From positions 11,315-75,314 of the forward strand of contig CAWJTT010000005.1 of assembly GCA_963845865.1 (NCBI GenBank): a stretch of DNA of 64,000 nucleotides. Reading direction: 5' to 3'. This stretch comes from an uncultured Actinomycetes bacterium. GTDB lineage: Bacteria; Actinomycetota; Thermoleophilia; Gaiellales; JALYLC01. Positions 14,285 through 46,438 of the stretch are shown here, one piece after another. Position 1 is the first letter of the stretch; the number at the start of each line of letters is the position of its first letter. A model generated the notes under the pieces. The model was not told the DNA's origin. It saw only the letters and a list, made by a program, of their open reading frames with translations, and did not search any database. The position numbers were made by a program, and so were the translations under genes.

Positions 14285-14483
14285 ATTCCCGCTGTTGGTC
14301 GAGAACTGACAGCGCTTTTCGGTAGGTTCCGTTTCGCGCAATTTGCGGTCGCGTTTCCGTCACCTATGCTGCCCGCCACCTCGGACTCGCGGCTGAGTTG
14401 CAGGGGGGACAGCGAGGCGTGTCGCTTGATGCGGTGCAGGTTGGTGCCATACGAACCGGGAGGTGCGGTATGAGGGCCACGGA

Positions 14484-15566
14484 ATGCTGACGGTCGAGTA
14501 CTCGCTGCCCGATATCGAGGAGCTCACGCGCCTCGTTGAGGCCGGCCAGGAAAAGGGCTTCTTGACGTACGACGAGATCGCGACCGTGCTCGAAGAGGTC
14601 GAGATCTCGAAGGAGCAGGTAGAGGATCTGCATTCGTACCTGCTCGACCACGGCATCGACGTGCTCGAGAGCGCCGGCGATCCCGCGCCGGACGCGCCGG
14701 CAGCCGAGAAGGGGCCGGAGCTCGACCTGACCGTTGAGCCGTCGCTCGACTCCCTGCGTCTCTATCTCCGCGCCATCGGCCGCGTCTCGCTGCTCACGGC
14801 CGAGCAGGAAGTGCACCTCGCCAAGCGCATCGAGCGCGGCGACATGCGTGCCAAGCAGGCCATGATCGAGGCCAATCTGCGCCTCGTCGTCTCCATTGCG
14901 AAGGGCTATCTCGGTCGCGGCCTCTCGTTTCTCGACCTCATCCAGGAAGGCTCTCTCGGACTCATCCGCGCAGTCGAGAAGTTCGACTACCGCAAGGGCT
15001 ACAAGTTCTCCACCTACGCGACCTGGTGGATCCGGCAAGCGGTGACCCGCGCGATCGCCGACAAGTCCCGGACCATCCGCATCCCGGTCCACATGGTCGA
15101 GAAGCTCAACAAGGCCGTGCATGTCGAGCGCCAGCTCGTGCAGAAGCTCGGCCGCGAGCCGCTCCCGTCCGAGATCGCGCGCGAGCTCGGCATGAGCGCC
15201 GACGAGGTGCGCGAGATCATGCGCATGGCGCTGGCGCCGATCTCCCTCGAGAAGCCGATCGGCGAAGACGAGGAGTCCGAGCTCGGCGACTTCGTGCGCG
15301 ACGACAGCGAGCCGACGCCCTTCGACACCGCGACGCTCAACCTGCGCCGCGAGGACATCGAGCGGGCACTGGAATCGCTCCCCGAGCGCGAGCGGCGCGT
15401 GATCGAGCTCCGCTACGGCCTCACCGGAGATCGCCCGCGCACGCTCGAAGAGGTCGGGCGCGCGTTCGGCGTGACGCGCGAGCGCATCCGCCAGATCGAG
15501 AACAACACGCTCAAGAAGCTGGAGACCCTGCCGGAGGCCCAGAGCCTGCGCGGCACGATGGGCTGA
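14484..15566 (+). CDS. rpoD: principal (group 1/2) RNA polymerase sigma factor
   Basis: Regions 1.2 to 4 are present: [72 protein letters not shown] and [30 protein letters not shown] 14484 has GAGGG 7 nt upstream. The track start at 14463 is less likely. Confidence 0.9.
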
Positions 15567-15618
15567 GCCAGCGCGTTCGATAAGATCCAGCGCGCGGTTG
15601 TCCCAGCAGCCGCGAGCT

Positions 15619-15701
15619 GGGAGTGTGCCCGAGAGGCTAAAGGGGACGGGCTGTAAACCCGTTGGCGTATGCCTACGTTGGTTCGAATCCAACCGCTCCC
15701 A
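15619..15701 (+). tRNA. tRNA-Tyr(GTA): tRNA-Tyr, anticodon GTA, class II with a long variable arm, no encoded CCA
   Basis: The cloverleaf was folded by hand. Acceptor GGGAGTG/CGCTCCC has one G-U pair. Anticodon stem is ACGGG/CCCGT with loop CTGTAAA. The variable arm is GGC-gtat-GCC. The T arm is GTTGG-TTCGAAT-CCAAC. The discriminator is A. Confidence 0.9.
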
Positions 15702-15709
15702 CTGCGAGG

Positions 15710-15733
15710 AAAAGCCCACTACGGCGGGCTTTT
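15710..15733 (+). terminator. intrinsic terminator after tRNA-Tyr
   Basis: AAAAGCCC ... GGGCTTTT hairpin that ends in a T run. Confidence 0.6.
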
Positions 15734-15795
15734 CTGTGCTCTGACCTGCGTAGCGCTCAGACGCGCAGAGGCGCCCGGAGGCGCATGCGAACGCT

Positions 15796-15819
15796 GCAAA
15801 ACGACGCGCAAAACGACGC
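15796..15819. repeat. 12-nt tandem duplication GCAAAACGACGC x2, plus a partial third copy
   Basis: It was read directly from the sequence. It lies in the roughly 300-nt stretch after the tRNA that has no convincing ORF. Confidence 0.9.
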
Positions 15820-16043
15820 GCAACCTCTCGCACCGGGCTCGATCGACGGGCCGATGCCGACGCGCTGGCGCAGCCGTCCTGCTTCGCCATTGGGGCCCTG
15901 CCCCACGGCCGGACGGCGCCCCCGCCGGTGCGTGCGTGCAACGAGGTTGCAGACTGGGGCCCCCCGGGCCGCGTCACTGCTAGGGGCCGGTGGGTCGGGC
16001 TCGTTGGCGATCATGAGGCTTCTCCGTTGGGAACGGCGCACGC

Positions 16044-16075
16044 GAGCGCGAGCGGTGTCCTGACCGCTCGCGCTC
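16044..16075 (-). terminator. perfect 13-bp hairpin downstream of the small secreted-protein gene
   Basis: GAGCGCGAGCGGT - gtcctg - ACCGCTCGCGCTC, 37 nt after the stop at 16112. There is no T tract. Confidence 0.45.
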
Positions 16076-16111
16076 ATTCACGTGATGGCTGGGAGGGGTT
16101 GCGACGCGGAT

Positions 16112-16381
16112 TTACTGCGCCCACGGCCGCGTCTTGGCGGCTTCCCACTTGGCCGCGAGCGCGCTGCCCTCGACGCCGAGGCCCGCAAAGGCGTTCGTGC
16201 CGGACTCGACCTTGCGGAGGGCGCTGCCCTCGTGGCCGAGACCTGCAAAGGCGCTTGACCGCGCGTGAGCGACGATCTGGTGGCGCTTGACCGGCGTGCG
16301 CTGGTCGCCGGCCTGGGAGGCGGGCACGACGAGCGCACTCAGGAGAAGCGCACAGGCGATGGTGTTGACGCGGTGGTTCAT
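16112..16381 (-). CDS. small secreted protein (89 aa) with an internal tandem 13-aa repeat
   Basis: ATG 16381 has GAAGGAG 5 nt upstream. The signal peptide is MNHRVNTIACALLLSALVVPASQA. The mature part contains AFAGLGHEGSAL and AFAGLGVEGSAL separated by 8 residues. The track ORF begins 16 codons earlier. Confidence 0.7.
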   Translation of the reverse strand: MNHRVNTIACALLLSALVVPASQAGDQRTPVKRHQIVAHARSSAFAGLGHEGSALRKVESGTNAFAGLGVEGSALAAKWEAAKTRPWAQ

Positions 16382-16575
16382 CGGGACTCCTTCTCGCCGA
16401 GGGCCGTCCGATACGGCCCAACGAGACAAGCGTCCGAGGTGGCGGTTGGAGATCGGCTAAGGAGCGCTTGCGCGCGGTAGAGAAGCGCTAGAGGACGCGC
16501 GAGCGTCGCGCTGCACTGGCGTGGTAGCTTTGCGCCAGCAGGAGGCGGAGAGACGATGCATGCGGGCGAGCTCGG

Positions 16576-19500
16576 GTGAAGGGCCGGCTTGACTTCCGTG
16601 TCCTGGGGCCCTTGGAGGTCGTAGGCGAAGAGGGCGCGGTGGCGCTGGCGCAGGGAAAGGCGCGCGTCGCTCTCGGCGTCCTGCTGATACATGCGAACGA
16701 GGTCGTTGCCACCGATCGACTGATCGATGACATCTGGGGGGCGCAGCCGCCCGCGACTGCGCTCAAGAGCGTGCACGTCTACGTCTCACAGCTGCGGCGA
16801 AGCCTGGGCGCCGACGCGATCGTGACGCGACCGCCCGGGTACCAGTTGCGACTGGAGCCCGGGCAACTCGACCTCTACCGCTTCGAACGGCTGCGCGAGG
16901 AAGCGGCGCACGCTGAACCGGCCACCGCCGCCGCAAAGCTGCGCCAAGCACTCCGTTTGTGGCGTGGGCCGCCGTTTGCGGACTTCACCTACGCAGCCTT
17001 CGCGCAGGCGACGATCGCTCGCCTCGAGGAGCTGCGAGTCTGTGTGCTCGAAGAATGCATCGCAGCCGAGCTGGAGCTGGGACGCCATGCGGAGCTCGTG
17101 GGTGAGCTCGCGACACTCGCACAGGAGCATCCACTGCGCGAGCGCATCCGCGCCGCGCAGATGCTCGCACTCTACCGCTCGGGCCGGCAAGCAGACGCGC
17201 TCGCGGCCTACCAGAGCACGCGTCGCGCACTCGTCGACGTGCTCGGGATCGAGCCCGGCCGGGCCCTCCACGAACTCGAGCGAGACATCCTGACTCAGGA
17301 GTCCGCACTCGACTTCGTCCCGTCAGAAACGCACGCGGTAGCTCCAGAGAGAACCCTTCAGCCTCAAGGTATGCAGGCAGAGAGGTCCCTTCCGACGGGA
17401 ACGGTCAGCCTCCTCTTCACCGACATCGAGGGATCCACGCGTGTGCTCCAGACTCTCGGCGAGATCGTCGGACGCGAAGAGGAGCTTGCAAGTCTCGTCG
17501 CTTGCCTCGAGCAGCGGCAGCGGCTACCGCGGGAAATCGTGATCGAAGGTGAGGCGGGAATCGGCAAGACGATGTTGTGGCGGCACGCGGTCGCCGAGGC
17601 TCAAGCGCAGGGTTACCGGGTTCTCTCGTGCAGCCCGAGCGAAACCGAGGCGCACCTCGCCTTTTCTGGGTTGCGCGATCTCCTGGACGCGGCCTACGGC
17701 GACGGCGCGGACGCGCTCCCGCCTCCGCAGCGGCGCGCGCTCGACATTGCTCTCCTGCGTGCCGATCCCGGACAGCGGTCTCCCGATCAGGGAGCCGTGG
17801 CGGCAGCGTTTCTCGCCTCGCTCCGGCGCCTTGCGGAGCGCCGTCCAGTTCTCGTTGCGGTCGACGATGTCCAATGGCTCGACGGATCGACGGCGTTCCT
17901 GATGGGCTTCGTCGCGCGCCGGTTGCAAGACGAGCGGGTCGCCCTCCTCGTCGCCCGGCGCGCGGCCTTGTCTGATGCCGAACTGGCGTTCGGAGTGCGT
18001 GATCGGCTGCGAATGACGCTCGGTCCGCTCAGCATCGGAGCGCTTCACCGCATCCTGCGAACGCAGCTGGGCGGCGCTGCGCCGAGCCGGCCGATGCTGG
18101 TACGTCTGCACGAGCTCGCGGGCGGCAATCCCTTCTACGCGCTTGAGATTGCGCGTGCCCTTGAGCGCCGGGCCGACCTGGGGCCGGGCGAGGAGCTTCC
18201 CCTGCCTGCGCGGCTGCAGGATCTCGTGCTCGAGCGGCTCGCTGCGCTCCCGGAGCGCACGGTGGAGGCGCTTCAGGTCATAGCTGCGCTCTCGCAGCCG
18301 ACCGTGACGCTCGTCACCTCGGTGCTCCGCGACAACGCGGAGCCGCTCGAGCCAGCACTTGCGGCGCACGTGATCTCGACCGACGGTGATCGCCTGGTGT
18401 TCACGCACCCACTCCTGGCTTCCGGCGCATACTCCACCGCCGGTCCCGCGCGTCGGCGTGACCTGCACGGTCGGCTTGCGATGATCGTCGAGGAGGCCGA
18501 GGAACGGGCAAGGCACCTCGCGCTGGCCACCCTCCAGCCCGGCGCGGCAGTCGCGGCCGCACTCGAAGACGCGGCCCAGCGCGCGCGGGCACGCGGTGCG
18601 CTAAGCGCGGCCGCCGATCTCGCCGAGCAGGCAGTGCGGCTCACGCCGCCGGACGCGCGCGAGGACGTCCTCCGCCGGACGATCGAAGCCGCGGGCAATT
18701 GCTTCGAGGCAGGCGACGCCGGGCGGGCGCGGGCACTCTTCGAGCGTGCCGTCAGCATCGCTCCCGAGGGAGGACGTCGTCGGGCCACTGCGTTGGTGAG
18801 GCTCGCTCGCGCGAACGCGTTCGGAGCGAACCTCCGGGTCGCCGCCGCGCTCTACCGACAGGCGATCGCGGAGGCAGATCCGGAGAGTGCGACCCGTGCC
18901 GAGGCGGAAGAGGGACTCGCGGTCGCGCTCATGCGGATGCTCAAGGATCTCCCAACTGCTGCTCAGCACGCGGCGAACGCGACGGAGCTCGCCAAGCGCT
19001 TGGGCGACGGTCATGCGCTTGCGGAGTTCCGCGCGTCACACGCGCTTATCGTCGGGCTTCGGGGCGACCCACGAGCGCTCGGGTTGATGCAGCGTGTTGA
19101 GGGCGTGGAGGCGTTCGATGCGGAGAGCGATTTCGGTCCCTCGCGATTTCTGCGCACACTCTGGGGAACAGGATTCATGTCCTCGGTCCTCCGCGTGTTC
19201 GCCGACGATCTCGATGAGGCGCGAGCAGGGCTCGAGCTCGCGCGTGCGCGGGCCGTCGAGGCCGGCGACGAGGCGTCCTTGCCGCTCCTGCTGCGGTACC
19301 TGAGTCTCGTCGAGCTCCTCGCCGGTGACTGGTCTCGCGCGGAGCGCTTGGCCGACGAGGGTTACGAGGCATCCCTCCAGACCGGACAGCCCTCGCAACA
19401 GGCCGTGCTCGCGGCGTCAAGTGCGTTGATCGCAGCTCACGGAGGAAACGTCGAGGCGACGCGGGCGAGAGCGGACGAGGCGCTACGTCTCGGCGAGGAG

Positions 19501-20241
19501 ACCGGGTCGGGGTTCGCAGAACTGCTGGCCCGCTCGGCGCTTGGCCTGCTCGAGCTCTCGCTCGGGAATCCAGACCGTGCGGCGGAGGAGCTCGAGCCGC
19601 TCGTCGACGCGATCGAGGCAGCAGGTGTCGGCGAACCTGGAGTGGCACGATTCGTGCCTGACGCGATCGAGGCCAGGGTCGCGGTCGGGCGGCTTGGGGA
19701 TGCCGGCAGGCTGCTGGCGTCACACGAGGAGCGCGCGATGCGGCTCGACAGGCCGTCCGCTCTCGCGGCCGCAGGGCGTTGTCGCGCGTTGCTGCTCGCG
19801 GCGCGGACGGACTTCGACGGGGCGCTCGCCTCCGTCGGCGAGGCGCTCGCCCAGCATGCTCGGGTAGCGATTCCGTTCGAGCGTGGCCGGACGCTCCTCG
19901 TTCTCGGCGCAGTCCAGCGGCGCGCGACGCGAAAACGCGCAGCGCGAGAAGCGCTCGAGGAAGCGCTCGCGGTCTTCGAGCGGCTCGGTGCACGACTGTT
20001 CGCAGAGCAAGCACGCCTGGAGCTTGGCCGCATCGGTGGGCGCCGCCCCCCCACCGACCGACTGACGCCGACGGAACGCCGGGTTGCCGGCCTCGTCGCC
20101 GAAGGGCGATCGACGAAAGAGGTTGCCGCGACGCTCTTCGTCTCTCCGAAGACGGTCGAGGGACACCTGTCGAGCATCTACACCAAGCTGGGCATCCACT
20201 CGCGAACGGCGCTGGCCCGCGAGCTCTCGGCGTCTCGGTAG
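16576..20241 (+). CDS. chimeric transcriptional regulator: SARP (winged helix + BTAD), cyclase stub, P-loop STAND ATPase, TPR, LuxR HTH
   Basis: The N-terminus FRVLGPLEV...YVSQLRRSLG...GYQL plus ALRLWRGPPFADF...AELELGRH...LMLALYRSGRQADAL is the AfsR/DnrI type. LPTGTVSLLFTDIEGST is the start of a class III cyclase domain. IVGREEEL...GEAGIGKTML is the Walker A region. A long helical-repeat region follows. The C-terminus LTPTERRVAGLVAEGRSTKEVAATLFVSPKTVEGHLSSIYTKLG is a LuxR HTH. Confidence 0.85.
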   Translation: MKGRLDFRVLGPLEVVGEEGAVALAQGKARVALGVLLIHANEVVATDRLIDDIWGAQPPATALKSVHVYVSQLRRSLGADAIVTRPPGYQLRLEPGQLDLYRFERLREEAAHAEPATAAAKLRQALRLWRGPPFADFTYAAFAQATIARLEELRVCVLEECIAAELELGRHAELVGELATLAQEHPLRERIRAAQMLALYRSGRQADALAAYQSTRRALVDVLGIEPGRALHELERDILTQESALDFVPSETHAVAPERTLQPQGMQAERSLPTGTVSLLFTDIEGSTRVLQTLGEIVGREEELASLVACLEQRQRLPREIVIEGEAGIGKTMLWRHAVAEAQAQGYRVLSCSPSETEAHLAFSGLRDLLDAAYGDGADALPPPQRRALDIALLRADPGQRSPDQGAVAAAFLASLRRLAERRPVLVAVDDVQWLDGSTAFLMGFVARRLQDERVALLVARRAALSDAELAFGVRDRLRMTLGPLSIGALHRILRTQLGGAAPSRPMLVRLHELAGGNPFYALEIARALERRADLGPGEELPLPARLQDLVLERLAALPERTVEALQVIAALSQPTVTLVTSVLRDNAEPLEPALAAHVISTDGDRLVFTHPLLASGAYSTAGPARRRDLHGRLAMIVEEAEERARHLALATLQPGAAVAAALEDAAQRARARGALSAAADLAEQAVRLTPPDAREDVLRRTIEAAGNCFEAGDAGRARALFERAVSIAPEGGRRRATALVRLARANAFGANLRVAAALYRQAIAEADPESATRAEAEEGLAVALMRMLKDLPTAAQHAANATELAKRLGDGHALAEFRASHALIVGLRGDPRALGLMQRVEGVEAFDAESDFGPSRFLRTLWGTGFMSSVLRVFADDLDEARAGLELARARAVEAGDEASLPLLLRYLSLVELLAGDWSRAERLADEGYEASLQTGQPSQQAVLAASSALIAAHGGNVEATRARADEALRLGEETGSGFAELLARSALGLLELSLGNPDRAAEELEPLVDAIEAAGVGEPGVARFVPDAIEARVAVGRLGDAGRLLASHEERAMRLDRPSALAAAGRCRALLLAARTDFDGALASVGEALAQHARVAIPFERGRTLLVLGAVQRRATRKRAAREALEEALAVFERLGARLFAEQARLELGRIGGRRPPTDRLTPTERRVAGLVAEGRSTKEVAATLFVSPKTVEGHLSSIYTKLGIHSRTALARELSASR

Positions 20242-20257
20242 ACCCGCCGCAAAGACA

Positions 20258-20281
20258 GGGGATTTTCCCCGTTTCTCTTTC
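20258..20281 (+). terminator. weak intrinsic terminator after the regulator gene
   Basis: GGGGA-ttt-TCCCC followed by GTTTCTCTTTC. Confidence 0.4.
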
Positions 20282-20309
20282 GCGGGCGCCCTCCTAACCT
20301 CGGCTGCAA

Positions 20310-20576
20310 ATGGCGCGGTATCTCGTCGAGGTCTACATGCCGAACCGCGGCGACGCAGTTGCGCGCACGCACGCGGACGCGGCGACGCTCGCGCGCTCGC
20401 GCGGTGTGCGCTACGTGCGGGCGATCCTCATCCCGGAGGACGAAACGTGCTTTCACGTGCTCGACGCAGCCTCCGCGGACATCGTCGACGGAGCTGCAAG
20501 AGAGGGGTCCGTTCGGGTTGAGCGGATCGCCGAGGCCGTCGAGGTTTCGCGCCCGACACAAAGGGAGGAGCCATGA
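20310..20576 (+). CDS. small cytoplasmic protein resembling DUF4242
   Basis: The pattern MARYLVEVYMP...GVRYVRAILIPEDETCFHVLDAASADIVDGAAREG...ERIAEAVEV fits. No clear SD is visible. Its stop overlaps the next start (ATGA). Confidence 0.6.
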   Translation: MARYLVEVYMPNRGDAVARTHADAATLARSRGVRYVRAILIPEDETCFHVLDAASADIVDGAAREGSVRVERIAEAVEVSRPTQREEP

Positions 20577-21076
20577 GAAGGAAGATCATGCTCGGAGTGC
20601 TCGTCGCCGCAATTACGGGGGCGGCAGTGGCCGTGCCGCTCGCGGCATCGGCGGATCGCGACCACAGGCTCGTGATCGGCGTCAGAGTGAATTTCGTCAG
20701 CTCGACGCACGCCGAAGGCACGTTCGCGGCCTGCTGCGCGGTCAACGACAACGGCGCCGCTCAGGCTGACATCACCGCCTTCAGCGTCAAGAATGACGAT
20801 ACGGGCGCGTTCGAGGCGATCGAGACGTTCTCCGGTTCGAAGGGCTCGTTCAGGCTGGCGCTGCGCGGCACGACTGGTCCGCTAAGCAGCCTCCGCCACG
20901 TCGCGCGCGGCCATTGGTCGGTCCTGGATGGCACCGGCGCATACGCCGGCATGAAAGGAGAGGGAAAGCTCACCGCCGTCACAGACGAGACGGACGGCGC
21001 TCTCACCGCGATCAACGACGGCGAGGCGCAGGCGGTCGAACGCTCGGCCGAACCCCGAGAGGAGAAGAAGCAATGA
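20573..21076 (+). CDS. secreted hypothetical protein (167 aa)
   Basis: GGGAGGAG lies upstream. The signal peptide is MRRKIMLGVLVAAITGAAVAVPLAASA. The beta-rich body carries GHWSVLDGTGAYAGMKGEGKL. Confidence 0.75.
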   Translation: MRRKIMLGVLVAAITGAAVAVPLAASADRDHRLVIGVRVNFVSSTHAEGTFAACCAVNDNGAAQADITAFSVKNDDTGAFEAIETFSGSKGSFRLALRGTTGPLSSLRHVARGHWSVLDGTGAYAGMKGEGKLTAVTDETDGALTAINDGEAQAVERSAEPREEKKQ

Positions 21077-21088
21077 GGAAGGAAGCGC

Positions 21089-21922
21089 TTGATCGCTGCG
21101 GCAGCCGGCACGTTGCTCGCCGCCGCGATCGTCGGCGGCGTCGCGTACGCGACGATCCCCAGCGACACGAATGTCTTCACGGCCTGCATGCTCAAGAACG
21201 TGGGGACGATCCCGCTGATTGACCCCTCGCTGTCGAGCAGCTCCCTGCTGAGCCACTGCGCCTCGCTCGAAGCGCAGTTGTCGTGGAACCAGAAGGGGCA
21301 GCCCTCGGCGGCCGGGCTTCCGGGGCCTGCAGGCACGGCCGGTCCAGCCGGTCCGGCGGGCAAGGACGGCGCCGGTGTGAACGGCACCGCGGAGGCGGCA
21401 GGCGCCAACTGCGCCGCGGGCGGCGTCCAGCTCGCCACGGCGAACGGCGTGACCTACGTTTGCGACGGCAAGAACGGGAGGGACGGCAAGGACGGCACCA
21501 ACGGCACCAACGACACCAACGGTCGCGAAGGGAAGGACGGCGTAAGCGTGACGAGTGCCGCCGAGCCTGCCGGCACCAACTGTGCGAACGGCGGCTCGAA
21601 GTTCACTGCGGCGAACAACAACGTGACCTATGCCTGCGACGGGTCCGGTGGCACGGGCGGGATCGGGAGCCTCGATGCGCTCCGCGGATCGCCGTGCAAC
21701 AACGGCGCCGGCACGACCGAGATCACCTACGGCAGCAACGGCTCCGTCTCGCTGACGTGCGGAGCGCAGACCAGGCACGCCCTCACCGTCACGCTGAACT
21801 CGATCTCTGGAGGGAGCGGCACCGTCACGAGCTCGCCCGTGGGTATCAGCTGCTCGGGAACCTGCACCGCGAGGTTCTCGGCCGGGACGAACGTGACGCT
21901 CACGGCGACGCCCGCCGCCTGA
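21089..21922 (+). CDS. membrane-anchored collagen-like protein with Cys-bracketed modules and a partial InlB-B-repeat-like end
   Basis: TTG 21089 lies 3 nt after GGAAGGAAG and 12 nt after the previous stop. The N-terminal anchor is IAAAAGTLLAAAIVGGVAYA. GXY tracts are GLPGPAGTAGPAGPAGKDGAG and GKNGRDGKDGTNGTN..GREGKDG. Two paralogous modules are AGANCAAGGVQLATANGVTYVCDG and AGTNCANGGSKFTAANNNVTYACDG. The C-terminus is LTVTLNSISGGSGTVTSSPVGISCSGTCTARFSAGTNVTLTATPAA. Confidence 0.75.
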   Translation: MIAAAAGTLLAAAIVGGVAYATIPSDTNVFTACMLKNVGTIPLIDPSLSSSSLLSHCASLEAQLSWNQKGQPSAAGLPGPAGTAGPAGPAGKDGAGVNGTAEAAGANCAAGGVQLATANGVTYVCDGKNGRDGKDGTNGTNDTNGREGKDGVSVTSAAEPAGTNCANGGSKFTAANNNVTYACDGSGGTGGIGSLDALRGSPCNNGAGTTEITYGSNGSVSLTCGAQTRHALTVTLNSISGGSGTVTSSPVGISCSGTCTARFSAGTNVTLTATPAA

Positions 21923-21949
21923 GGATTCGGAGCGTCCCCAGCTCGTTGG

Positions 21950-22810
21950 CTATCGAGACGCCCGCATCACGGCGTCGGCTATCGCGCGGTACCCGACATC
22001 TGTCGGATGCGGATCGCTCTTCGAGCAGATGAAGGTGAACTTGCAGAGGCGAGCGCGCTGAGCTTGCAAGCTTCCCACTGGATTGAGCACCGGAAGCATC
22101 CGCGCGATCTTCGCGTGCGACCCGGTTGCCGCTCCGGCGATCGCCGCCTCGAACGAGCGGTAGACCGCTCGGAGCTGCTGGAGCGAATTCGGATCGGGGT
22201 TCCACGCTCCCGTGACAATGATCTCGGCGTGGGGCGCTGCTGCTCGAATCCGTCGAAGGATCGCCGTGAGACGAGCGGCGAACGCTTTGGTCTCACTCGG
22301 CGCCTGCTTGCGAGCGCACGCCACCGAGCCGCCGCAGGTGTTCTGCAACACCGGAAGCCAGTCGTTGCCCCACAGCGTCACCGTGATCGGGCTGACGTCT
22401 CCCGGGTGCGCCCGCAGGAACGACAAGGCCGCGTCGAGCTGCGCGCCCTTGAAGGAACGGTGCAGCCTAACCTCCCTGCGCGTAGGGCATCCGCCAGCGA
22501 CGAACGTCCGGGTCGACTCTCCCGGGCAGCCGTAGTTGACGACCTGCAGGCTCGGCGAGAGCTTTCGCAGACGCGCGGCGAAGACGTCGACGTACCCCGT
22601 ATCGAACGAAGACGGCGCAGCCATCAGCGGCTTGCCCGGCTGGAACCCGTATGCGATCGAGTCGCCAAGCGCGAGGTAGTAGCCACGAGGAGTCGCCTGC
22701 TTGGCCCCCGAGGTCGCACCGGCGGTGAGGGCGAGAACGCCCGCGAGCGCAAGACCCGAGAGCAGAACAGTCACCAACACTGCACGGCGAGTCGTACGCA
22801 GACGCGGCAC
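21950..22810 (-). CDS. secreted SGNH/GDSL hydrolase
   Basis: GTG 22810 has AAGGAGG upstream. A signal or anchor is present (VLVTVLLSGLALAGVLALTAGA). Block I is LALGDSIAYG, block III is TLWGNDW and block V is DPHPTDVGY. Confidence 0.85.
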   Translation of the reverse strand: MPRLRTTRRAVLVTVLLSGLALAGVLALTAGATSGAKQATPRGYYLALGDSIAYGFQPGKPLMAAPSSFDTGYVDVFAARLRKLSPSLQVVNYGCPGESTRTFVAGGCPTRREVRLHRSFKGAQLDAALSFLRAHPGDVSPITVTLWGNDWLPVLQNTCGGSVACARKQAPSETKAFAARLTAILRRIRAAAPHAEIIVTGAWNPDPNSLQQLRAVYRSFEAAIAGAATGSHAKIARMLPVLNPVGSLQAQRARLCKFTFICSKSDPHPTDVGYRAIADAVMRASR

Positions 22811-22896
22811 GCGAGCCTCCTTCGGCTTAGCGTATCGGACGTTCCATCTCGGGCCTCAGCGCCGGTCGAGTTCCGGAGTCTTCAGGCACGGCCGTC

Positions 22897-22918
22897 AAAG
22901 CCCGCTCCGGCGGGCTTT
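22897..22918 (-). terminator. perfect 9-bp hairpin AAAGCCCGC-tccg-GCGGGCTTT
   Basis: It lies about 100 nt downstream of the collagen-like gene stop at 23016. Confidence 0.45.
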
Positions 22919-22963
22919 CCTGCGCTTCAGCGTGGTAGAGCTCGGGCGCACAGCCGGCGTGGG

Positions 22964-23010
22964 GGCGTGAGCGAGGATCGGCGCCGACGCCGCTCACCCT
23001 CGCTCACGCC
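22964..23010 (-). terminator. 13-bp perfect inverted repeat with a 21-nt loop
   Basis: GGCGTGAGCGAGG ... CCTCGCTCACGCC starts 6 nt after the stop at 23016. Confidence 0.4.
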
Positions 23011-23015
23011 GCCGT

Positions 23016-23741
23016 TCAGGAAGCGACGAGCGTCGCGCTCGGGTTGCTCTGTGCGAGTTCGGCCGTCATCGTGATTGGCCCCCAGAACACGGCCGGGCAG
23101 TCGGACGCGCCATTTAGGTAGATGGTGTTAGCGCCTGCGACGATCGGCAGGACGCGTGTTGCCGAGGCGCTGAATCCGAGGAACGTTCCTGCGCCGTTTT
23201 GGGTGGGCAGGTTGCCGTTGATCCACTGATCGGCGAAGCCTGGCGCCGACGCGCCGCCGACCGGAATCGTCGGAGCAGCGGCAGCGGAGGCGATCTGCGA
23301 CTGAACTCGGCAGTCCGTGCCTGCGGTGTTGTGTACGCGTGTCGAGAAATTCGCCGTGACGAGCGCGAAGCCGGCGGTCGTCGAGGTGAAGGTGAGGTGC
23401 GCGACCTCACCGCTCGGCAGCGGAACTCGTGCCGCCGGGTATGCCGATGCGCTCCAGACAGCCGTCAGTCCCGCGAGTCCGGGGGCCCCCGCGGCTCCCG
23501 CGGGACCCGCGGGGCCTGCCGGTCCCCTCGGACCCGCCGGGCCGACGGGGCCACGGCGTCCGCGCAGACCGCGTAGCTTCTTCGGCGGCTTCTTCTTGGC
23601 CGCGTGTGCGTTCTTGGCCGGGTGTGCGGAGGGCGCCGTCGAGGAAGCGACGGCGATCCCGCCCACCGTCGCGAGAGTAAACCCCGCCGCCACGCTAGCG
23701 ATCACGAGTGGCGACCGGGTGAACGCGCGAGCACGTCTCAT
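23016..23741 (-). CDS. exported collagen-like protein with a globular beta-rich C-terminal domain (BclA-like layout)
   Basis: ATG 23741 has AGGAGGAG upstream. The N-terminus MRRARAFTRSPLVIASVAAGFTLATVGGIAVA is a signal or anchor. A Lys-rich linker is followed by 11 GXY triplets (GLRGRRGPVGPAGPRGPAGPAGPAGAAGAPGLAG). About 145 further residues follow. The upstream part of track ORF 23016..23963 is shadow. Confidence 0.75.
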   Translation of the reverse strand: MRRARAFTRSPLVIASVAAGFTLATVGGIAVASSTAPSAHPAKNAHAAKKKPPKKLRGLRGRRGPVGPAGPRGPAGPAGPAGAAGAPGLAGLTAVWSASAYPAARVPLPSGEVAHLTFTSTTAGFALVTANFSTRVHNTAGTDCRVQSQIASAAAAPTIPVGGASAPGFADQWINGNLPTQNGAGTFLGFSASATRVLPIVAGANTIYLNGASDCPAVFWGPITMTAELAQSNPSATLVAS

Positions 23742-23838
23742 GGCTCCTCCTAAGGGGAGAACAGGGTGGAACGCGGAGCATCTCCCGTACGCGCACCGAA
23801 CGCAAGCTTCCCGTGCCGAGCAGCCTGCTACGCGGGGT

Positions 23839-24654
23839 TCAGCGAGACGCGGTGGACGGGTGGACCCGCACGCGCGCGCGGGGGATGTCACGCACTCGCC
23901 GCGAGAGCATGCGATCGTAGTCCGGCCCGTCGAAGAGCGCGTAGTGGTGCCGCATGGCGGCAAGCGCGGCGGCTGGATCGCGCTGCTCGATCGCCTCGAG
24001 GATGGGTAGATGCGATGCGACCTCCCAGGACTCCGGTGCGGCGAGGTCGGGAGGGAGGGAGGTGTCGACGATGATCCGTTGCAACGGACGTAAGAGAATC
24101 TCTAGGCCGGGCAGGTGCACCGACTCGACGAGGACGACGTGGAAGCGCAGGTGCGCCCTTTCGGCACGTGCCCAGTCTGCAACCTCTTCGGCGGCGCACA
24201 GGTCGGTATATGCCGCGCGGAGCCGTGAGACGTCGGCGTCGTCGCGCTCGACGGCCGCGCGCTCGCAGAGCATGAGGTCGACGGCCTCGCGCGCCTTGGC
24301 CAGGTCGGCGAGTGTCACGTCGGAGCGGACGAGGAGATCGAGGAGAGCGTCGGCGTAGGGCTCTTCGGGCTCTCCCCGCACGACCGTGCCGTACCCCTGC
24401 CGCACCTCGACCAGGCCGCGCGCAGCGAGCGAGCGGACGGCGTCGCGTACGACGCTGCGGCTGACGCCGAACGTCTCGACCAGCTCCGGCTCCGAGGGGA
24501 GGCGATGCCCTGCCGGCCACGCCCCGGTCAGCACGCGTTCGGCGAGGACGCCTGCGACCTGGTCGGAGAGCGATGACGAGCGTCCAAGGAACGGCAGCGT
24601 CGTCGTCGCGGGCTGGGTTCTCGGCTTGGGCGCGGCCATGGGTTGACTCATCAT
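23839..24654 (-). CDS. GntR family regulator (FadR subfamily, FCD effector domain)
   Basis: The HTH is LPSEPELVETFGVSRSVVRDAVRSLAARGLVEVRQGYGTVV and the C-terminal domain is helical. The start is uncertain, with ATG candidates at 24654, 24651 and 24639. Confidence 0.85.
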   Translation of the reverse strand: MMSQPMAAPKPRTQPATTTLPFLGRSSSLSDQVAGVLAERVLTGAWPAGHRLPSEPELVETFGVSRSVVRDAVRSLAARGLVEVRQGYGTVVRGEPEEPYADALLDLLVRSDVTLADLAKAREAVDLMLCERAAVERDDADVSRLRAAYTDLCAAEEVADWARAERAHLRFHVVLVESVHLPGLEILLRPLQRIIVDTSLPPDLAAPESWEVASHLPILEAIEQRDPAAALAAMRHHYALFDGPDYDRMLSRRVRDIPRARVRVHPSTASR

Positions 24655-24697
24655 ACGTCTGATCAATAGGCTTACGCCTGGCGAACCGGAGGCGAGC

Positions 24698-26290
24698 ATG
24701 ACCACGGACGGGCAGCAGTTGGACCCCCACACGCTGGGCGAGACGGGGATGACGCGCAGGGCCGCGCTCCTGGCCGGGGCGCTCGGTGCCGGCGGGCTGC
24801 TTGCCGCCCAGGGCGGACTCGGCGCCGCCGCCGCGCTGGGGGCTGCGACTCCGGAACGCGGAGGGCACCTGCGCGTCGGGCACGTCGGCGCGGGCAAGGG
24901 CGAGTCGTTCAACCCCGGCCGCGGCTCGTCGTTCATCGACGCCTCGCGCTACTACAACCTCTACGACCCGCTGGTGCGCGTCAATCCGGATTTCTCGCAG
25001 TCGCCCGCGCTCGCGCTCGCATGGACGCCGAATGCGACGCGCACGGTCTGGGAGGTCAAGCTGCGACCGGGCGTCAAGTGGCACGACGGGTCGCCGTTCA
25101 CGGCCGACGACGTGATCTACACGCTTCGTCAGATGGGCAATCCGAAGCACGTCGGTCATGCGGCGGTCCTGAACATCCGCCTGGCGGACGTCAAGAAGAA
25201 GGGCCCGTTGGTCGTCCGGATCCCGCTGAAGTCGCCGGATGCACGGCTGTCCGACTCGTTCGTGCAGCAGAACACCGTGATGATCAAGAACGGGGAGACG
25301 GACTTCGCGCATCCGATCGGCACGGGCCCGTTCATGTTCAAGTCGTTCGAGGTCGGCGTGCGCAGCCTCTGCACTCGCAACCCCGACTACTGGGAACATG
25401 GCAAGCCGTACGTCGACTCGTGGGAGGACATCTCGATCGACGACAACTCGGCACGCCTGAACGCGCTGCTCGCCGGCCAGATCGACATGATGAGCCAGCT
25501 CGACTTCAATCAGGCCAAGGCGCAGAAGTCGGCCAAGAAGATCCAGGTCATCGATGCGCCGAGCCCGGCCTACCAGGTGTTCATCATGCGCACCGACCGG
25601 CCGCCCTTCAACGACGTCAGGGTGCGGCAGGCGTTCCGGCTGATCGTCGACCGCCAGGCGTTGATCAACGTCGCGCTCGGTGGCTTCGGCACGCCGGGGA
25701 ACGACCTCTTCGGTCGGGGTCTGCCGTACTTCGCGAAGTCGCTCCCCGTGCGCAAGCAGGACATCGAGCAGGCGAAGTCGCTGCTGAAGAGCGCAGGCAA
25801 GACCAATCTCAGCGTGACGCTGCAGACCTCGAACATCGTGCCGGGGTTCACCGCAGCGGCGACGCTGCTCGCCCAGCAGGCGCAGCAAGCCGGCGTCAAG
25901 GTGCAGATCAAGACGGAGCCGGCGAACGCCTACTTCGACACGTCGCTGTTGTACACGAAGATGACCTTTGCGCAGTCGTACTGGACGACGGGCTCGCTGG
26001 CCGCGTTCTACAGCCAGGCGCTCGACTCGAAGGCGGTCTGGAACGAGACGCACTTCAAGCACGCGTCGTTCGACGCCCTGATGCGCAAGGCCACGGGCGC
26101 CACGACGGTCCCGCAGGCCACGGCACTCTGGCTCAAGGTGCAGAAGATCCAGTACGAGCGCGGTGGCTACATCGGCTGGGCCAACCAGAACATCGTCGAC
26201 GCCGCCTCGAACAAGATCAAGGGCATGGTGCCGAGCGCGTTCTTCAACCTCGGCGGGTGGGACTACCGCGACGTCTGGTTCGGGGCCTAG
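24698..26290 (+). CDS. ABC transporter substrate-binding protein, family 5 (peptide/opine/nickel type), Tat signal
   Basis: GGAGG lies 5 nt upstream. The twin-arginine signal is MTRRAALLAGALGAGGLLAAQG. VKWHDGSPFTADDVIYTL is present. Length is 530 aa. Confidence 0.9.
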   Translation: MTTDGQQLDPHTLGETGMTRRAALLAGALGAGGLLAAQGGLGAAAALGAATPERGGHLRVGHVGAGKGESFNPGRGSSFIDASRYYNLYDPLVRVNPDFSQSPALALAWTPNATRTVWEVKLRPGVKWHDGSPFTADDVIYTLRQMGNPKHVGHAAVLNIRLADVKKKGPLVVRIPLKSPDARLSDSFVQQNTVMIKNGETDFAHPIGTGPFMFKSFEVGVRSLCTRNPDYWEHGKPYVDSWEDISIDDNSARLNALLAGQIDMMSQLDFNQAKAQKSAKKIQVIDAPSPAYQVFIMRTDRPPFNDVRVRQAFRLIVDRQALINVALGGFGTPGNDLFGRGLPYFAKSLPVRKQDIEQAKSLLKSAGKTNLSVTLQTSNIVPGFTAAATLLAQQAQQAGVKVQIKTEPANAYFDTSLLYTKMTFAQSYWTTGSLAAFYSQALDSKAVWNETHFKHASFDALMRKATGATTVPQATALWLKVQKIQYERGGYIGWANQNIVDAASNKIKGMVPSAFFNLGGWDYRDVWFGA

Positions 26291-26297
26291 GGCTCGC

Positions 26298-35556: not shown

Positions 35557-36429
35557 CTACGGCACTTGTCGAGTGGGGCTCAGCGACTCGGCGTGTGCGA
35601 TGTCGCGAGGCCCTCGACGCGCGCGGAGCATGCGCGCGTAGTCGTGCCGTGTGCGCGCGAGCCATGGGCGGGCGTCCATGCGCGCGTTCGCGTCGAGTGC
35701 TGCTTCGAAATGGCGGACTGCATCCTCCCAGCGTCCAAGCACGGCTGCGGCGTTGCCGAGGCTGCGTGATACGTCGCCGAGGCTGATCTCGTCTGCGTTG
35801 GAGGCGTTGCGCCCCGCATGTGGACGCAGCAGGTCGTAGAGCGTGCCGGCGTGGTCGGCGGAACCCAGTCGTTCGCTCGCGTCGGCGAGGAAGCTCATGC
35901 AGAAGAGCCATTCGTTGTCGACCGGAATGTCGGTGAACGCGCCGACGGCGAGGTGCTCGAGCGCAGTACGCGCCTCGTCCTCACGGCCGAGATCGCAGAG
36001 CAGGAGAACGAGCGCGCAGCGGAATACCGGCCGCGCCGGATACTCCTGAACGGATCGTCTGATCGTCTCCTCGATCTCGTCCAGACGGCCTTGCTCGCGT
36101 CGGAGCAGGAAGAGCTGGAGGCGCGACGAGAGGGTGGCATCTTGGTTCATGGCGTGGCGGCCGAGCTCGAGCGCTCGCGAGATCAGAGTTTCGGCGTCGT
36201 CGAGTCGCCCGGTAAGCAGCGCCAGGTTGGCGCGCGTTGCCGCGACGTACCAGAGCTGCGCGGGCTGTCGTAACTCGTCCGCGTAATCGCCGCAAACCCT
36301 GTCAGCCCATGAGCGTGCTCCGCGCGAGCGGTCGGGAGACCGCTCGCGCGCGTGCGGGTCGCCGCGAGGTGGGAACGAACGAGCAAGAGGCCGCCGTACT
36401 CCGTAACCTCCTCGATCGCGCGCGCAGGG
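35557..36429 (-). pseudogene. remnant of the TPR region of a large STAND/cyclase/LuxR-type regulator, truncated at both ends
   Basis: The frame is open from the TAG at 36432-36430 down to the stop at 35557. The first ATG/GTG/TTG is at 36150. The product (...LWYVAATRANLALLTGRLDDAETLISRALELGRHAMNQDATLSSRLQLFLLRREQGRLDE...ARPWLARTRHDYARMLRARRGPRD...) looks like the distal helical repeats of such regulators. It has no ATPase or HTH. Confidence 0.5.
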
Positions 36430-44484: not shown

Positions 44485-44610
44485 GGGCGGAAGCGTACGG
44501 CGAATCCGCGGCAGAGCGACGAGCACAGCGACGGCGGAGCAGGACCGCGAGCGGCGTATACTCGCAACATCCGGTCCACCGCCCTCGAGACCCTGCCGTC
44601 GGGAAGTCGA

Positions 44611-45801: not shown

Positions 45802-45838
45802 CGCTCGTCGCTCGTGAAACACCAAGCCGAGGTCTTAC

Positions 45839-46420: not shown

Positions 46421-46438
46421 GAAAGCGGAGGCTGCGAG

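What the first reader, a model, noticed from the sequence alone, without database searches (positions are those of the whole stretch)
16112..23741. Candidate module: exported repeat peptide, STAND-TPR regulator and collagen-like surface proteins
**Layout.** Between tRNA-Tyr and the GntR-controlled transporter the genes lie in this order:
- an 89-aa secreted protein with an internal tandem 13-aa repeat (16112-16381, minus strand)
- divergently, a 1221-aa SARP / STAND / TPR / LuxR regulator
- a tightly packed trio: a DUF4242-like 88-aa protein, a secreted 167-aa protein and a membrane-anchored collagen-like protein, joined by an ATGA overlap and a 12-nt gap
- a secreted SGNH hydrolase
- a second collagen-like protein with a globular C-terminal domain

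**Why it stands out.** None of these is housekeeping. Every effector-like product carries an export signal. The only regulator has a very large helical-repeat sensor region.

**Hypothesis.** A small exported pro-peptide gene next to a TPR+HTH regulator, with an Opp/Dpp-type importer starting about 1 kb further on (24698-29922), recalls RRNPP-type peptide signalling in Firmicutes. I do not know of that logic being described for this regulator architecture in high-GC actinobacteria. The functional link is hypothesis only.
Basis: partly seen in the sequence, partly recalled or inferred. Interest (0 to 1): 0.7.

Follow-up and report, generated by a model that had tools for sequence, protein, structure and literature searches.

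The report
Regulator paired with secreted repeat protein
A small secreted repeat protein and the DNA-binding head of a large AfsR-type regulator form a conserved two-gene pair in uncultured soil actinobacteria, but in this genome the regulator is a recent chimera and the collagen-like genes and peptide importer nearby are not part of the unit.

Summary

**Small gene.** The 89-aa gene belongs to a narrow, unannotated family from Gaiellales-type soil metagenomes. Members have a Sec-type signal peptide, 2-4 copies of an F-x-G/N-LGHEGSGL motif, and usually a C-terminal RPWA.

**Conserved pair.** In about five lineages the gene lies divergent from a SARP-ATPase-TPR (AfsR-like) regulator, while all other neighbours differ. 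Its promoter carries three direct repeats at 11-nt spacing, ending 8 nt from a weak -10. This is the published geometry of SARP binding sites. A derived clade of the family has no adjacent regulator and carries a CRP-like palindrome instead.

**Chimeric regulator.** Residues 1-248 are 80-90% identical to the AfsR-like partners. Residues 296-1221 are 94% identical to a SARP-less LAL regulator, which elsewhere travels with the SCO4226-like gene. A deleted second copy of the pair survives at 35.56-36.36 kb.

**Not part of the unit.** The collagen-like genes and the Opp/Dpp-type transporter do not co-travel with the pair.

**Reading.** The best model is a regulator-target pair of the AfsR→afsS kind with a secreted product, not RRNPP signalling. 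A feedback loop is not excluded.

The parts
16112..16381 (-). Gene for an 89-aa secreted protein with two LG(H/V)EGS repeats and a C-terminal RPWAQ; class-A member of a new small family.
16046..16073 (-). Terminator-like hairpin GCGCGAGCGGT-N6-ACCGCTCGCGC, 39 nt after the small gene's stop. It is conserved in L012, L024 and L017.
   Evidence: (I1/D9).
16401..16419 (-). 7-bp leader hairpin GGGCCGT-ATCGG-ACGGCCC between the promoter and the Shine-Dalgarno (16387-16392). It is conserved in both promoter classes.
   Evidence: (96.7% of cells paired, 2 compensatory pairs).
16429..16434 (-). Weak -10-like hexamer GACGCT (GAnGCT or CAGGCT in relatives), 8 nt downstream of the third repeat.
16443..16470 (-). 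Putative SARP box: three direct hexamers CAAGCG-N5-TAGCCG-N5-CAACCG at 11-nt period.
   Evidence: one match in the window, 0.06 expected; exactly once in each of 9 class-A loci. Geometry rule from PMC10936776.
16576..17319 (+). Regulator residues 1-248: SARP domain (OmpR-type wHTH + BTAD), inherited together with the small gene.
   Evidence: 80-90% identity to the L012/L024 regulators; DNA homology to L012 ends at 17319; best PDB match is AfsR, E=1e-40.
17320..17460 (+). Regulator residues 249-295: linker of third origin, containing a class III cyclase-like relic LFTDIEGST (17413-17439).
   Evidence: (compare P0084).
17461..20241 (+). Regulator residues 296-1221: complete LAL-type regulator (AAA_16 STAND ATPase, helical/TPR region, LuxR/GerE HTH).
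   Evidence: 94% identity to the SARP-less P0059; DNA 94.6% identical to L022 over 17461-20591.
20244..20275 (+). Conserved intergenic element CCGCCGCAAAGACAGGGGATTTTCCCCGTTTC, followed by a -10-like TAACCT (20295-20300). Candidate operator/promoter of the SCO4226-like gene.
   Evidence: (conserved in the window, L022 and L023).
20310..20576 (+). 88-aa cytoplasmic SCO4226-like (ex-DUF4242) protein, the conserved partner of the LAL regulator.
20573..21076 (+). 167-aa secreted protein (weak DUF3224 hit). It occupies a variable third position in the LAL cassette.
   Evidence: (74% homologue in L023, absent from L022).
21089..21922 (+). 277-aa N-terminally anchored protein with short G-X-Y runs (7+5 triplets) and Cys-containing DUF7151-like modules. 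Strain-level cargo.
21950..22810 (-). Secreted GDSL/SGNH hydrolase. A 54% homologue lies beside the AfsR-like regulator in L012.
23016..23741 (-). 241-aa anchored collagen-like protein: 12 G-X-Y triplets plus a TNF/C1q-like C-terminal head (BclA-type design).
35563..36282 (-). Intact-frame relic of the last 240 codons of an AfsR-like regulator (92.5% identical to residues 925-1164 of the L012 regulator).
36283..36361 (+). Relic of the 3' flank of a second small gene, including its terminator-like hairpin of the L012 type (36322-36349). Together with the previous part it marks a deleted second copy of the pair.
   Evidence: (I1/D9).

Best explanation
The functional unit is a two-gene pair. One gene encodes a large SARP-family (AfsR-like) regulator. 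The other, divergently transcribed, encodes a small secreted protein with 2-4 LGHEGSGL repeats.

[quoted passage not shown] This is the same logic as AfsR activating the adjacent small repeat-protein gene afsS. The product is exported and acts outside the cell. Its biochemical role is unknown.

**What happened in this genome.** The ATPase-TPR half of the AfsR-like regulator has been replaced by a complete LAL regulator (ATPase - helical repeats - LuxR HTH). That LAL regulator brought along its own conserved downstream partner, the SCO4226-like gene. The 1221-aa protein is therefore a recent chimera with two DNA-binding domains, each next to the target it was inherited with.

**What is cargo.** The 167-aa secreted protein, the two collagen-like proteins and the GDSL hydrolase are variable cargo. 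The Opp/Dpp-type transporter belongs to a separate GntR-controlled metabolic cluster.

**Shown:** gene reality, family, synteny, chimerism, breakpoints, promoter motifs.
**Inferred:** SARP binding to the box, activation, export, and LuxR control of the downstream cassette.
For: - **Pair conserved, context not.** This holds for the window, L016/L017, L007, L010, L012, L024-26 and L001.
- **Orthologous partners.** The partner regulators in L012, L024 and L001 are full-length orthologues of each other, 72-90% identical, with SARP-AAA_16-TPR and no LuxR domain.
- **Promoter box.** The class-A promoter has CAAGCG-N5-TAGCCG-N5-CAACCG ending 8 nt before a GAnGCT -10. The pattern occurs exactly once in each class-A locus and never in class-B loci. 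PMC10936776 states that SARP sites are direct repeats 11 or 22 bp apart, with the 3' repeat 8 bp from the -10, at promoters with poor -10/-35 elements.
- **AfsR similarity.** AfsR is the best structural relative of the SARP domain.
- **AfsR/afsS precedent.** afsS is an adjacent small gene encoding 63-87 aa with 2-5 repeats, and it is a direct AfsR target.
- **Chimerism.** Identity to the L012/L024 regulators falls from 80-90% to about 28% at residue ~250. Residues 296-1221 are 94% identical to the SARP-less P0059. The DNA breakpoints are at 17319 and 17461.
- **LAL cassette.** LAL followed by an SCO4226-like gene recurs in L022 and twice in L023, and the intergenic element is conserved in L022 and one of the two L023 copies.
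- **Coding support.** The small gene has a Shine-Dalgarno, high GC3, dN/dS of 0.3-0.6 and in-frame repeat gain and loss.
Against: - No binding, expression or secretion data exist, and the organism is an uncultured MAG.
- The box was defined from the same alignment in which its conservation is scored, and its middle repeat is poorly conserved.
- Adjacency alone cannot separate 'target' from 'ligand source', or from plain inherited synteny.
- The ATPase of the partner regulators is AAA_16-type. Only the SARP part aligns to AfsR, so this is an analogy, not orthology.
- AfsS is cytoplasmic and lies downstream in the same direction. The protein here has a signal peptide and is divergent.
- SignalP was not available, so export rests on sequence features alone.
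Confidence: 0.55

Rival explanations
1. Peptide or protein feedback loop. The exported repeat protein, or peptides cut from its repeats or its RPWAQ tail, is sensed again by the helical-repeat/TPR region of the adjacent STAND regulator. This would give autoinduction.
For: - Four of the five RRNPP signature criteria are met: small size, Sec signal, TPR present, direct adjacency (PMC10075063).
- The repeat copy number varies from 2 to 4 while the motif is almost invariant, and basic residues often follow each motif. This resembles a multi-copy pro-peptide.
- AfsS binds AfsR through its repeats (PMC10832544).
- In the AfsR-like lineages, the TPR half and the small gene are conserved together.
Against: - In this window the sensor half was replaced by an unrelated one (~28% identity), yet the small gene stays intact in several strains.
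- The class-B clade keeps the protein with no adjacent regulator, under a CRP-like site.
- The motif shows no pherotype-like diversification.
- The receptor is 1136-1221 aa with an ATPase, outside the RRNPP definition.
- The Opp/Dpp genes are not conserved neighbours.
- A re-import route is entirely hypothetical.
Confidence: 0.13
2. Inherited synteny without a regulatory link. The small protein has an autonomous extracellular function. It sits next to the SARP gene only because the two-gene segment has been inherited, duplicated and recombined as a block.
For: - The segment from the small gene to SARP codon 248 behaves as one recombination block.
- The family functions without the regulator in class-B lineages.
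- STAND/LuxR regulators are very abundant in these genomes, with at least three in this 64-kb window.
Against: - The pair persists in about five lineages in which every other neighbour has changed.
- The intergenic region holds conserved, correctly spaced direct repeats exactly where a SARP would act. These are lost precisely in the lineages that lost the regulator.
Confidence: 0.2
3. The small protein is a multi-core RiPP precursor or a metal-binding (His/Glu) secreted protein tied to the nickel-related neighbours (SCO4226-like protein, peptide/nickel ABC transporter).
For: - The core-like motif is repeated and contains an invariant H-E.
- SCO4226 is a nickel-binding protein (PMC4186839).
- The transporter's SBP_bac_5 protein is named a peptide/nickel binding protein by JGI.
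Against: - No modifying enzyme, and no nickel-related gene, is conserved next to the small gene in any other lineage.
- The SCO4226-like gene travels with the LAL regulator, not with the small gene.
- Half of the second repeats have V, I or R in place of H.
Confidence: 0.05

Closest known systems
AfsR / AfsS of Streptomyces (large SARP with an adjacent small repeat-protein gene)
   Same: - Both regulators are large: an N-terminal SARP domain, then a STAND ATPase, then TPR. This holds for the L012, L024 and L001 partners. The window keeps the SARP part, whose best PDB hit is AfsR.
- In both cases the directly adjacent small gene encodes a 63-89 aa protein with 2-5 short tandem repeats and low overall conservation.
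- Both promoters have direct repeats at 11-bp period, 8 bp from a poor -10.
   Different: - The small protein here has a Sec-type signal peptide, whereas AfsS is cytoplasmic.
- The repeat motif (LGHEGSGL) is unrelated to AfsS repeats.
- The genes are divergent, not tandem.
- The ATPase is AAA_16-type, and only the SARP region aligns to AfsR.
- The host is Thermoleophilia (Gaiellales-like), not Streptomyces.
- In the window, the sensor half has been exchanged.
SARP-LAL regulators (PimR, SanG, FilR) and LAL/MalT-type regulators
   Same: Both have an N-terminal SARP domain fused to a LAL-like ATPase/helical region. Residues 296-1221 form a complete LAL regulator (AAA_16 + TPR/MalT-like + GerE).
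   Different: - According to PMC10972967, the characterised SARP-LALs lack the LuxR HTH. This protein keeps it, and so has two DNA-binding domains.
- The fusion here can be dated as recent: its LAL part is 94% identical to a SARP-less LAL.
- It is not in a biosynthetic gene cluster.
- Full-length relatives with both domains exist in metagenomes (P0072, P0087, P0094, P0136).
RRNPP peptide quorum sensing (Firmicutes)
   Same: A small Sec-exported propeptide-sized product is encoded directly next to a TPR-containing transcription factor.
   Different: - The receptor is 1136-1221 aa with a STAND ATPase and SARP/LuxR DNA-binding domains, not 250-500 aa with an HTH_3 domain.
- There is no pherotype diversification.
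- No Opp transporter is conserved nearby.
- The sensor region was swapped without loss of the small gene.
BclA-type bacterial collagen-like surface proteins (for the 241-aa protein only)
   Same: Both have an N-terminal anchor, a G-X-Y stalk and a TNF/C1q-like C-terminal head. Foldseek hits include BxpB/ExsFA, C1q-like and TNF-family structures.
   Different: The protein has only 12 triplets and no exosporium context. Its family is restricted to Thermoleophilia metagenomes. It is not linked to the regulator pair.

Membership tests
RRNPP quorum-sensing pair (signature of PMC10075063) | Propeptide is small (10-100 aa) | tested here: met
   The product is 89 aa; family members are 80-120 aa.
RRNPP quorum-sensing pair (signature of PMC10075063) | Propeptide is exported by Sec (SignalP-type signal) | tested here: met
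   It has a basic n-region, a 15-residue hydrophobic core and an S-Q-A|G cleavage motif, conserved across the family. This is a heuristic assessment; SignalP was not available.
RRNPP quorum-sensing pair (signature of PMC10075063) | Receptor is 250-500 aa, with TPRs plus an N-terminal HTH and no ATPase | tested here: not met
   The regulators are 1221 aa (window) and 1136-1165 aa (L024, L012). They have an AAA_16 STAND ATPase and SARP (plus LuxR) DNA-binding domains.
RRNPP quorum-sensing pair (signature of PMC10075063) | Receptor carries TPRs | tested here: met
   TPR_12 hits are present in all of these regulators, though weak.
RRNPP quorum-sensing pair (signature of PMC10075063) | Propeptide and receptor genes are direct neighbours | tested here: met
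   This holds for the class-A subfamily only. It does not hold for class B.
RRNPP quorum-sensing pair (signature of PMC10075063) | Mature peptide is re-imported (Opp) and bound by the TPR domain | not testable with these tools
   The Opp/Dpp-type genes at 24698-29922 lie in a GntR/FCD-MR_MLE cluster and are absent from the other loci. The sensor half was swapped in the window.
AfsR/AfsS-type regulator-target pair | Large SARP: SARP domain + nucleotide-binding oligomerisation domain + TPR | tested here: met
   This is met in the L012, L024 and L001 partners. In the window only the SARP part is of this lineage. The ATPase is AAA_16, not NB-ARC.
AfsR/AfsS-type regulator-target pair | Target promoter has direct repeats 11 or 22 bp apart, the 3' repeat 8 bp from a poor -10 (PMC10936776) | tested here: met
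   The sequence pattern is present and conserved. Binding itself was not tested.
AfsR/AfsS-type regulator-target pair | Adjacent small protein with 2-5 short tandem repeats | tested here: met
   There are 2-4 motif copies per protein.
AfsR/AfsS-type regulator-target pair | Small protein is cytoplasmic and binds the regulator | tested here: not met
   A signal peptide predicts export. The interaction is not testable here.
AfsR/AfsS-type regulator-target pair | Sequence homology of the small protein to AfsS | not tested
   The small protein has no Pfam, NCBIfam or PDB hit at all. No direct comparison with an AfsS sequence was made.
LAL (large ATP-binding LuxR) regulators | N-terminal AAA/STAND ATPase, helical-repeat middle, C-terminal LuxR/GerE HTH | tested here: met
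   Residues 296-1221 meet this and are 94% identical to the 931-aa LAL P0059.
Bacterial collagen-like proteins of BclA type | Continuous G-X-Y region followed by a trimerising TNF/C1q-like head | tested here: met
   The 241-aa protein has 12 triplets, a Collagen Pfam score of 27.1 bits against a 27.2-bit cutoff, and a jelly-roll head with pLDDT 80-90 that matches BxpB/ExsFA, C1q and TNF structures. For the 277-aa protein the evidence is inconclusive: 7+5 triplets and no Collagen Pfam hit.

The most novel reading that the evidence does not exclude
The LGHEGSGL-repeat protein is an exported counterpart of AfsS. The AfsR-like NLR-type regulator activates its gene. The product is secreted and cut into several identical motif peptides (or the RPWAQ tail). 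The peptide is then sensed again by the regulator's TPR domain. This would be the first genetically encoded peptide autoinducer circuit with a STAND/NLR receptor in Actinomycetota.
Probability: 0.1. Interest if true: 0.85.

Novelty: new variant of a known kind. Interest (0 to 1): 0.5.

Why it matters
AfsR-like NLR-type regulators are numerous in actinobacteria, and most have unknown targets (bioRxiv 10.64898/2026.09.02.748808). This locus offers three things:

- **A candidate target outside Streptomyces.** It is a conserved, sequence-defined candidate target together with a candidate binding box.
- **A twist on the AfsR/afsS theme.** The small repeat protein here is exported, which raises the question of whether AfsR/AfsS logic can be routed through the cell exterior.
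- **A datable domain-swap example.** The locus shows how large regulators evolve. A SARP head kept with its target promoter was fused to a complete LAL regulator kept with its own downstream cassette, and a deleted second copy survives as a fossil.

The small-protein family and the TNF-headed collagen-like family are both unannotated lineage-specific families of abundant soil Thermoleophilia.

Tried and rejected
- **RNA families.** An Rfam scan of 15400-24800 at E<=5 found only tRNA-Tyr. There was no known family for the leader hairpin.
- **Promoter scan.** The sigma-70 consensus scan found no promoter in the intergenic region. This is expected for SARP-type promoters.
- **Small-protein structure.** AlphaFold2 on a 49-sequence alignment gave pLDDT 56, so no fold search was run. 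A PDB profile search found nothing. Pfam and NCBIfam found nothing.
- **Defence systems.** PADLOC gave only an HTH-level hit on the regulator, so a defence-island reading was dropped.
- **Collection scans.** Genome and JGI-metagenome scans with the family patterns gave only 3 and 5 loci, mostly short. Synteny therefore rests on the 12 exact-protein look-ups, one further attempt failed on queueing, and no look-ups remain.
- **Exact look-up of the window's small protein.** It found nothing.
- **Inversion model.** I first read the 3' relic at 35.5-36.3 kb as evidence for an 18-kb inversion. I rejected this after finding that the relic is joined to the 3' flank and hairpin of a small gene of the L012 type. 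A deleted second copy of the pair explains it more simply.
- **tblastn artefact.** A tblastn extension suggested that L022 contains residues 257-295. DNA alignment showed this to be spurious.
- **Nickel theme.** The idea linking the SCO4226-like protein, the peptide/nickel transporter and the His/Glu motif was rejected because nothing nickel-related follows the small gene in other lineages.
- **Lipoprotein reading.** Treating the conserved Cys10 as a lipobox cysteine was rejected, because the n-region is too short before the Cys.

Full report
**1. What is in the sequence**

The window is about 70% G+C. Exact-sequence look-ups place it in an uncultured Actinomycetota MAG. The only named relatives of the small protein are labelled Gaiellales and Baekduia, both Thermoleophilia.

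All ORFs in the finding exist. Frame-specific GC3 supports each of them, including the small minus-strand gene at 16112-16381, where GC3 is about 0.85. tRNA-Tyr is at 15619-15702.

Pfam and NCBIfam confirm the regulator's architecture: Trans_reg_C + BTAD (together the SARP domain), AAA_16, TPR_12 and GerE. They also confirm the SCO4226-like (ex-DUF4242) 88-aa protein, a weak DUF3224 hit for the 167-aa protein, the GDSL hydrolase, and borderline collagen hits. The ATGA overlap and the 12-nt gap are as described.

Two corrections apply. The repeat in the small protein is a 12-13-aa motif with a 20-aa period, which at DNA level is a 37-nt direct repeat 60 nt apart. The SCO4226-like protein has no export signal.

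**2. The small protein is a real, narrow family**

A word-indexed search found 57 clusters. A profile search of 1.84 billion representatives found only 33 clusters. None is annotated.

Members share a Sec-type signal peptide and 2-4 copies of (N/S)x-F-x-(G/N)-LGHEGSGL with variable spacers. Most end in RPWA(Q/N). Repeat copy number changes even between close relatives: L010 and P0050 have three copies.

dN/dS is 0.3-0.6. The gene has an AAGGAG Shine-Dalgarno. AlphaFold2 gives no confident fold (pLDDT 56). There is no PDB, Pfam or NCBIfam relative.

**3. Synteny: a conserved pair, and a derived unpaired clade**

Alignment of the upstream regions splits the loci cleanly into two classes.

*Class A* comprises the window, L007, L009, L010, L012, L015, L016, L017, L024-26 and L001. 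Wherever enough upstream DNA is present, a SARP-STAND regulator is divergently transcribed 190-260 nt away.

The other neighbours differ in every lineage:
- tRNA-Tyr and the SCO4226 cassette in the window
- acetyltransferase and aromatic lyase in L012
- AlkZ-like and DUF2461 in L024
- HhH-GPD and Glu-tRNA synthetase in L001

*Class B* comprises L002-4, L008, L013/14 and L018-21. No regulator is adjacent, and the contexts are heterogeneous: S11 peptidase/Usp, NDH2/MOSC, hydrolase, and MFS-cNMP/beta-propeller.

An NJ tree places class B as a derived clade within class-A diversity. From that tree I predicted that the basal P0035 would be paired. The last look-up confirmed a divergent 1136-aa SARP-AAA_16-TPR gene.

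**4. Promoter anatomy**

Class-A promoters carry CAAGCG-N5-TAGCCG-N5-CAACCG, three direct hexamers at 11-nt period. These are followed after 8 nt by a weak -10-like GAnGCT or CAGGCT, and then after 9-10 nt by a 7-bp hairpin.

The box pattern occurs once in the window (0.06 expected by chance) and exactly once in each of nine class-A loci. It never occurs in class-B loci. PMC10936776 gives this geometry as the common feature of SARP targets: direct repeats 11 or 22 bp apart, the 3' repeat 8 bp from the -10, and poor core elements.

Class-B promoters instead have TGT(G/A)A-CGTCCG-T(C/T)ACG. This is a CRP/GlxR-like TGTGA-N6-TCACA palindrome with symmetric substitutions, lying upstream of a consensus -10, TAGCTT. 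It occurs once in each of nine class-B loci and never in class A.

Both classes share the leader hairpin. In it, 96.7% of cells are paired, with two compensatory pairs and G-U variants that fit an RNA structure on the sense strand. No Rfam family matches it.

So the same secreted protein has been placed under different regulators during evolution.

**5. The regulator is a recent chimera**

The partners in L012, L024 and L001 are full-length orthologues of one another, 72-90% identical throughout, with SARP-AAA_16-TPR and no LuxR domain. This is the architecture of a 'large SARP' such as AfsR (PMC10972967).

Against these partners, the window's regulator is 80-90% identical over residues 1-250 and about 28% identical thereafter. 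Conversely, residues 296-1221 are 94% identical to P0059, a 931-aa LAL regulator with no SARP domain. The next-best hits are all LAL proteins of about 925 aa.

At DNA level, L012 matches window 16046-17319, and L022 matches window 17461-20591. The 141 nt between them encode a linker with the motif LFTDIEGST. This motif resembles the start of the cyclase domain in SARP-cyclase-STAND proteins such as P0084.

The LAL part arrives with its own partner. LAL followed by an SCO4226-like gene and then a small secreted protein recurs in L022 and twice in L023. A conserved 32-nt intergenic element and a -10-like hexamer lie before the SCO4226-like gene. The third gene of the cassette is variable.

The 277-aa and 241-aa collagen-like genes were found only in near-identical strains, L016 and L017. 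A GDSL paralogue, 54% identical, lies beside the regulator in L012.

**6. A fossil second copy**

Window 35563-36282 (minus strand) encodes, in an intact frame, the last 240 residues of an AfsR-like regulator. It is 92.5% identical to L012's.

It abuts, at 36283-36361, the 3' flank of a small gene, including that gene's terminator-like hairpin in the L012 sequence variant. The simplest reading is a second copy of the pair from which about 3.3 kb has been deleted. The deleted stretch would have held regulator codons 1-924, the intergenic region and the small gene.

This suggests that the pair duplicates and decays as a unit, and that the locus is prone to rearrangement. L012 also has a resolvase fragment at the regulator's 3' end.

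**7. Mechanism and comparison**

The best-supported model is a regulator-target pair of the AfsR to afsS type.

The published facts about that system are as follows:
- AfsR directly activates the adjacent small gene afsS (PMC10972967).
- AfsS-like proteins are 63-87 aa, poorly conserved, and carry 2-5 short repeats (PMC2267785 and PMC10832544).
- AfsS binds AfsR through those repeats.

The present pair shares the regulator class, the adjacency, the promoter geometry and the small repeat-protein design. It differs in that the product carries a signal peptide, the genes are divergent, and the motif is unrelated.

RRNPP membership fails on the receptor criteria (PMC10075063).

Three observations argue against the TPR region of this regulator sensing the peptide:
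- The sensor half was exchanged while the small gene was retained.
- Class-B lineages keep the protein without the regulator.
- The motif is almost invariant rather than diversified.

A feedback loop in the ancestral AfsR-like pairs cannot be excluded. It is the most novel reading that remains.

The Opp/Dpp-type transporter at 24698-29922 is divergent from a GntR/FCD gene at 23839-24639. It is followed by MR_MLE and ADH genes, and it is absent from all other loci with the pair.

**8. The collagen-like proteins**

The 241-aa protein belongs to a family of about 45 clusters from Thermoleophilia metagenomes. It has 12 G-X-Y triplets. Its C-terminal domain is modelled with pLDDT 80-90 as a jelly roll that matches BxpB/ExsFA exosporium proteins, C1q-like heads and TNF ligands. 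This is a BclA-type design.

The 277-aa protein has only short G-X-Y runs.

Both are plausible surface proteins, but neither is linked to the regulator pair by comparative evidence.

**9. Verdict**

The regulator's sensor is a recent import, and the RRNPP analogy is weaker than the AfsR/afsS analogy.

All functional steps remain inferences from sequence in an uncultured organism. This covers SARP binding, activation, export and LuxR control.

Noticed in passing
window 35563-36361: This is a fossil of a second regulator/small-gene pair. It holds the last 240 codons of an AfsR-like regulator (minus strand, intact frame, 92.5% identical to L012). These are joined directly to the 3' flank and terminator-like hairpin of a small gene. 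The 40-nt arms at 16034-16073 and 36322-36361 are the two copies of that hairpin.
   Followed up: yes
L002, L003, L004, L008, L013, L014, L018, L019, L021 (about 100-113 nt upstream of the small gene's ATG): Class-B small genes carry a CRP/GlxR-like palindrome TGT(G/A)ACGTCCGT(C/T)ACG, whose two halves change symmetrically, plus a consensus -10 TAGCTT. This suggests cAMP-type control has replaced SARP control.
   Followed up: partly
window 16401-16419 (-) and the same position in all related loci: A conserved 7-bp 5'-leader hairpin lies about 9 nt after the -10 and 8 nt before the Shine-Dalgarno. It is shared by both promoter classes and shows compensatory and G-U changes. No Rfam family matches it. 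It may be a 5'-terminal stabiliser or a translational element.
   Followed up: partly
L010 524-978; P0050, P0178, P0182, P0184, P0200: The copy number of the LGHEGSGL repeat varies from 2 to 4, even in a relative whose N-terminal 75 residues are 91% identical to the window's protein (L010 has three copies).
   Followed up: partly
L017 1-1746 compared with window 22856 onwards: There is strain-level structural variation. L017 is 99.7% identical to the window up to 22855. It then carries a 270-aa stand-alone SARP gene running into the GDSL gene, in place of the second collagen-like gene and GntR.
   Followed up: no
L022 5107-5637: In L022 the third gene of the LAL cassette encodes a different exported or anchored protein, with four perfect 20-aa tandem repeats (IRDAGDATAAKLALQSSPLV). 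The variable third slot of the cassette again holds a repeat protein.
   Followed up: no
L011 2-760 and 886-1205: A distant family member (54% identical) lies directly downstream of, and co-directional with, the C-terminus of a LAL-type (helical repeats + LuxR HTH) regulator. This may be a second, independent association of the family with STAND regulators, but it is a single case on a 1.5-kb contig.
   Followed up: partly
window 42871-44616 (-): This ORF is a further TPR_MalT + GerE regulator. Such regulators are dense in this genome, which raises the chance-adjacency background.
   Followed up: no
window 14463-15566 (+): A principal-type sigma-70 factor with regions 1.1, 1.2, 2, 3 and 4 is encoded immediately upstream of tRNA-Tyr.
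   Followed up: no
window 22961-23013: A 26-nt-arm inverted repeat (81% complementary, 1-nt loop) lies just after the stop of the 241-aa collagen-like gene and upstream of the GDSL gene. It is probably a terminator. It drew chance-level miRNA hits in Rfam.
   Followed up: no
L012 1205-1408: A 67-aa resolvase fragment abuts the 3' end of the AfsR-like regulator, between it and the GDSL gene. This hints at past site-specific recombination at this locus.
   Followed up: no
window 45000-47200: G+C drops locally to 0.59 over genes for a glyoxalase-family protein and a glutathione S-transferase.
   Followed up: no
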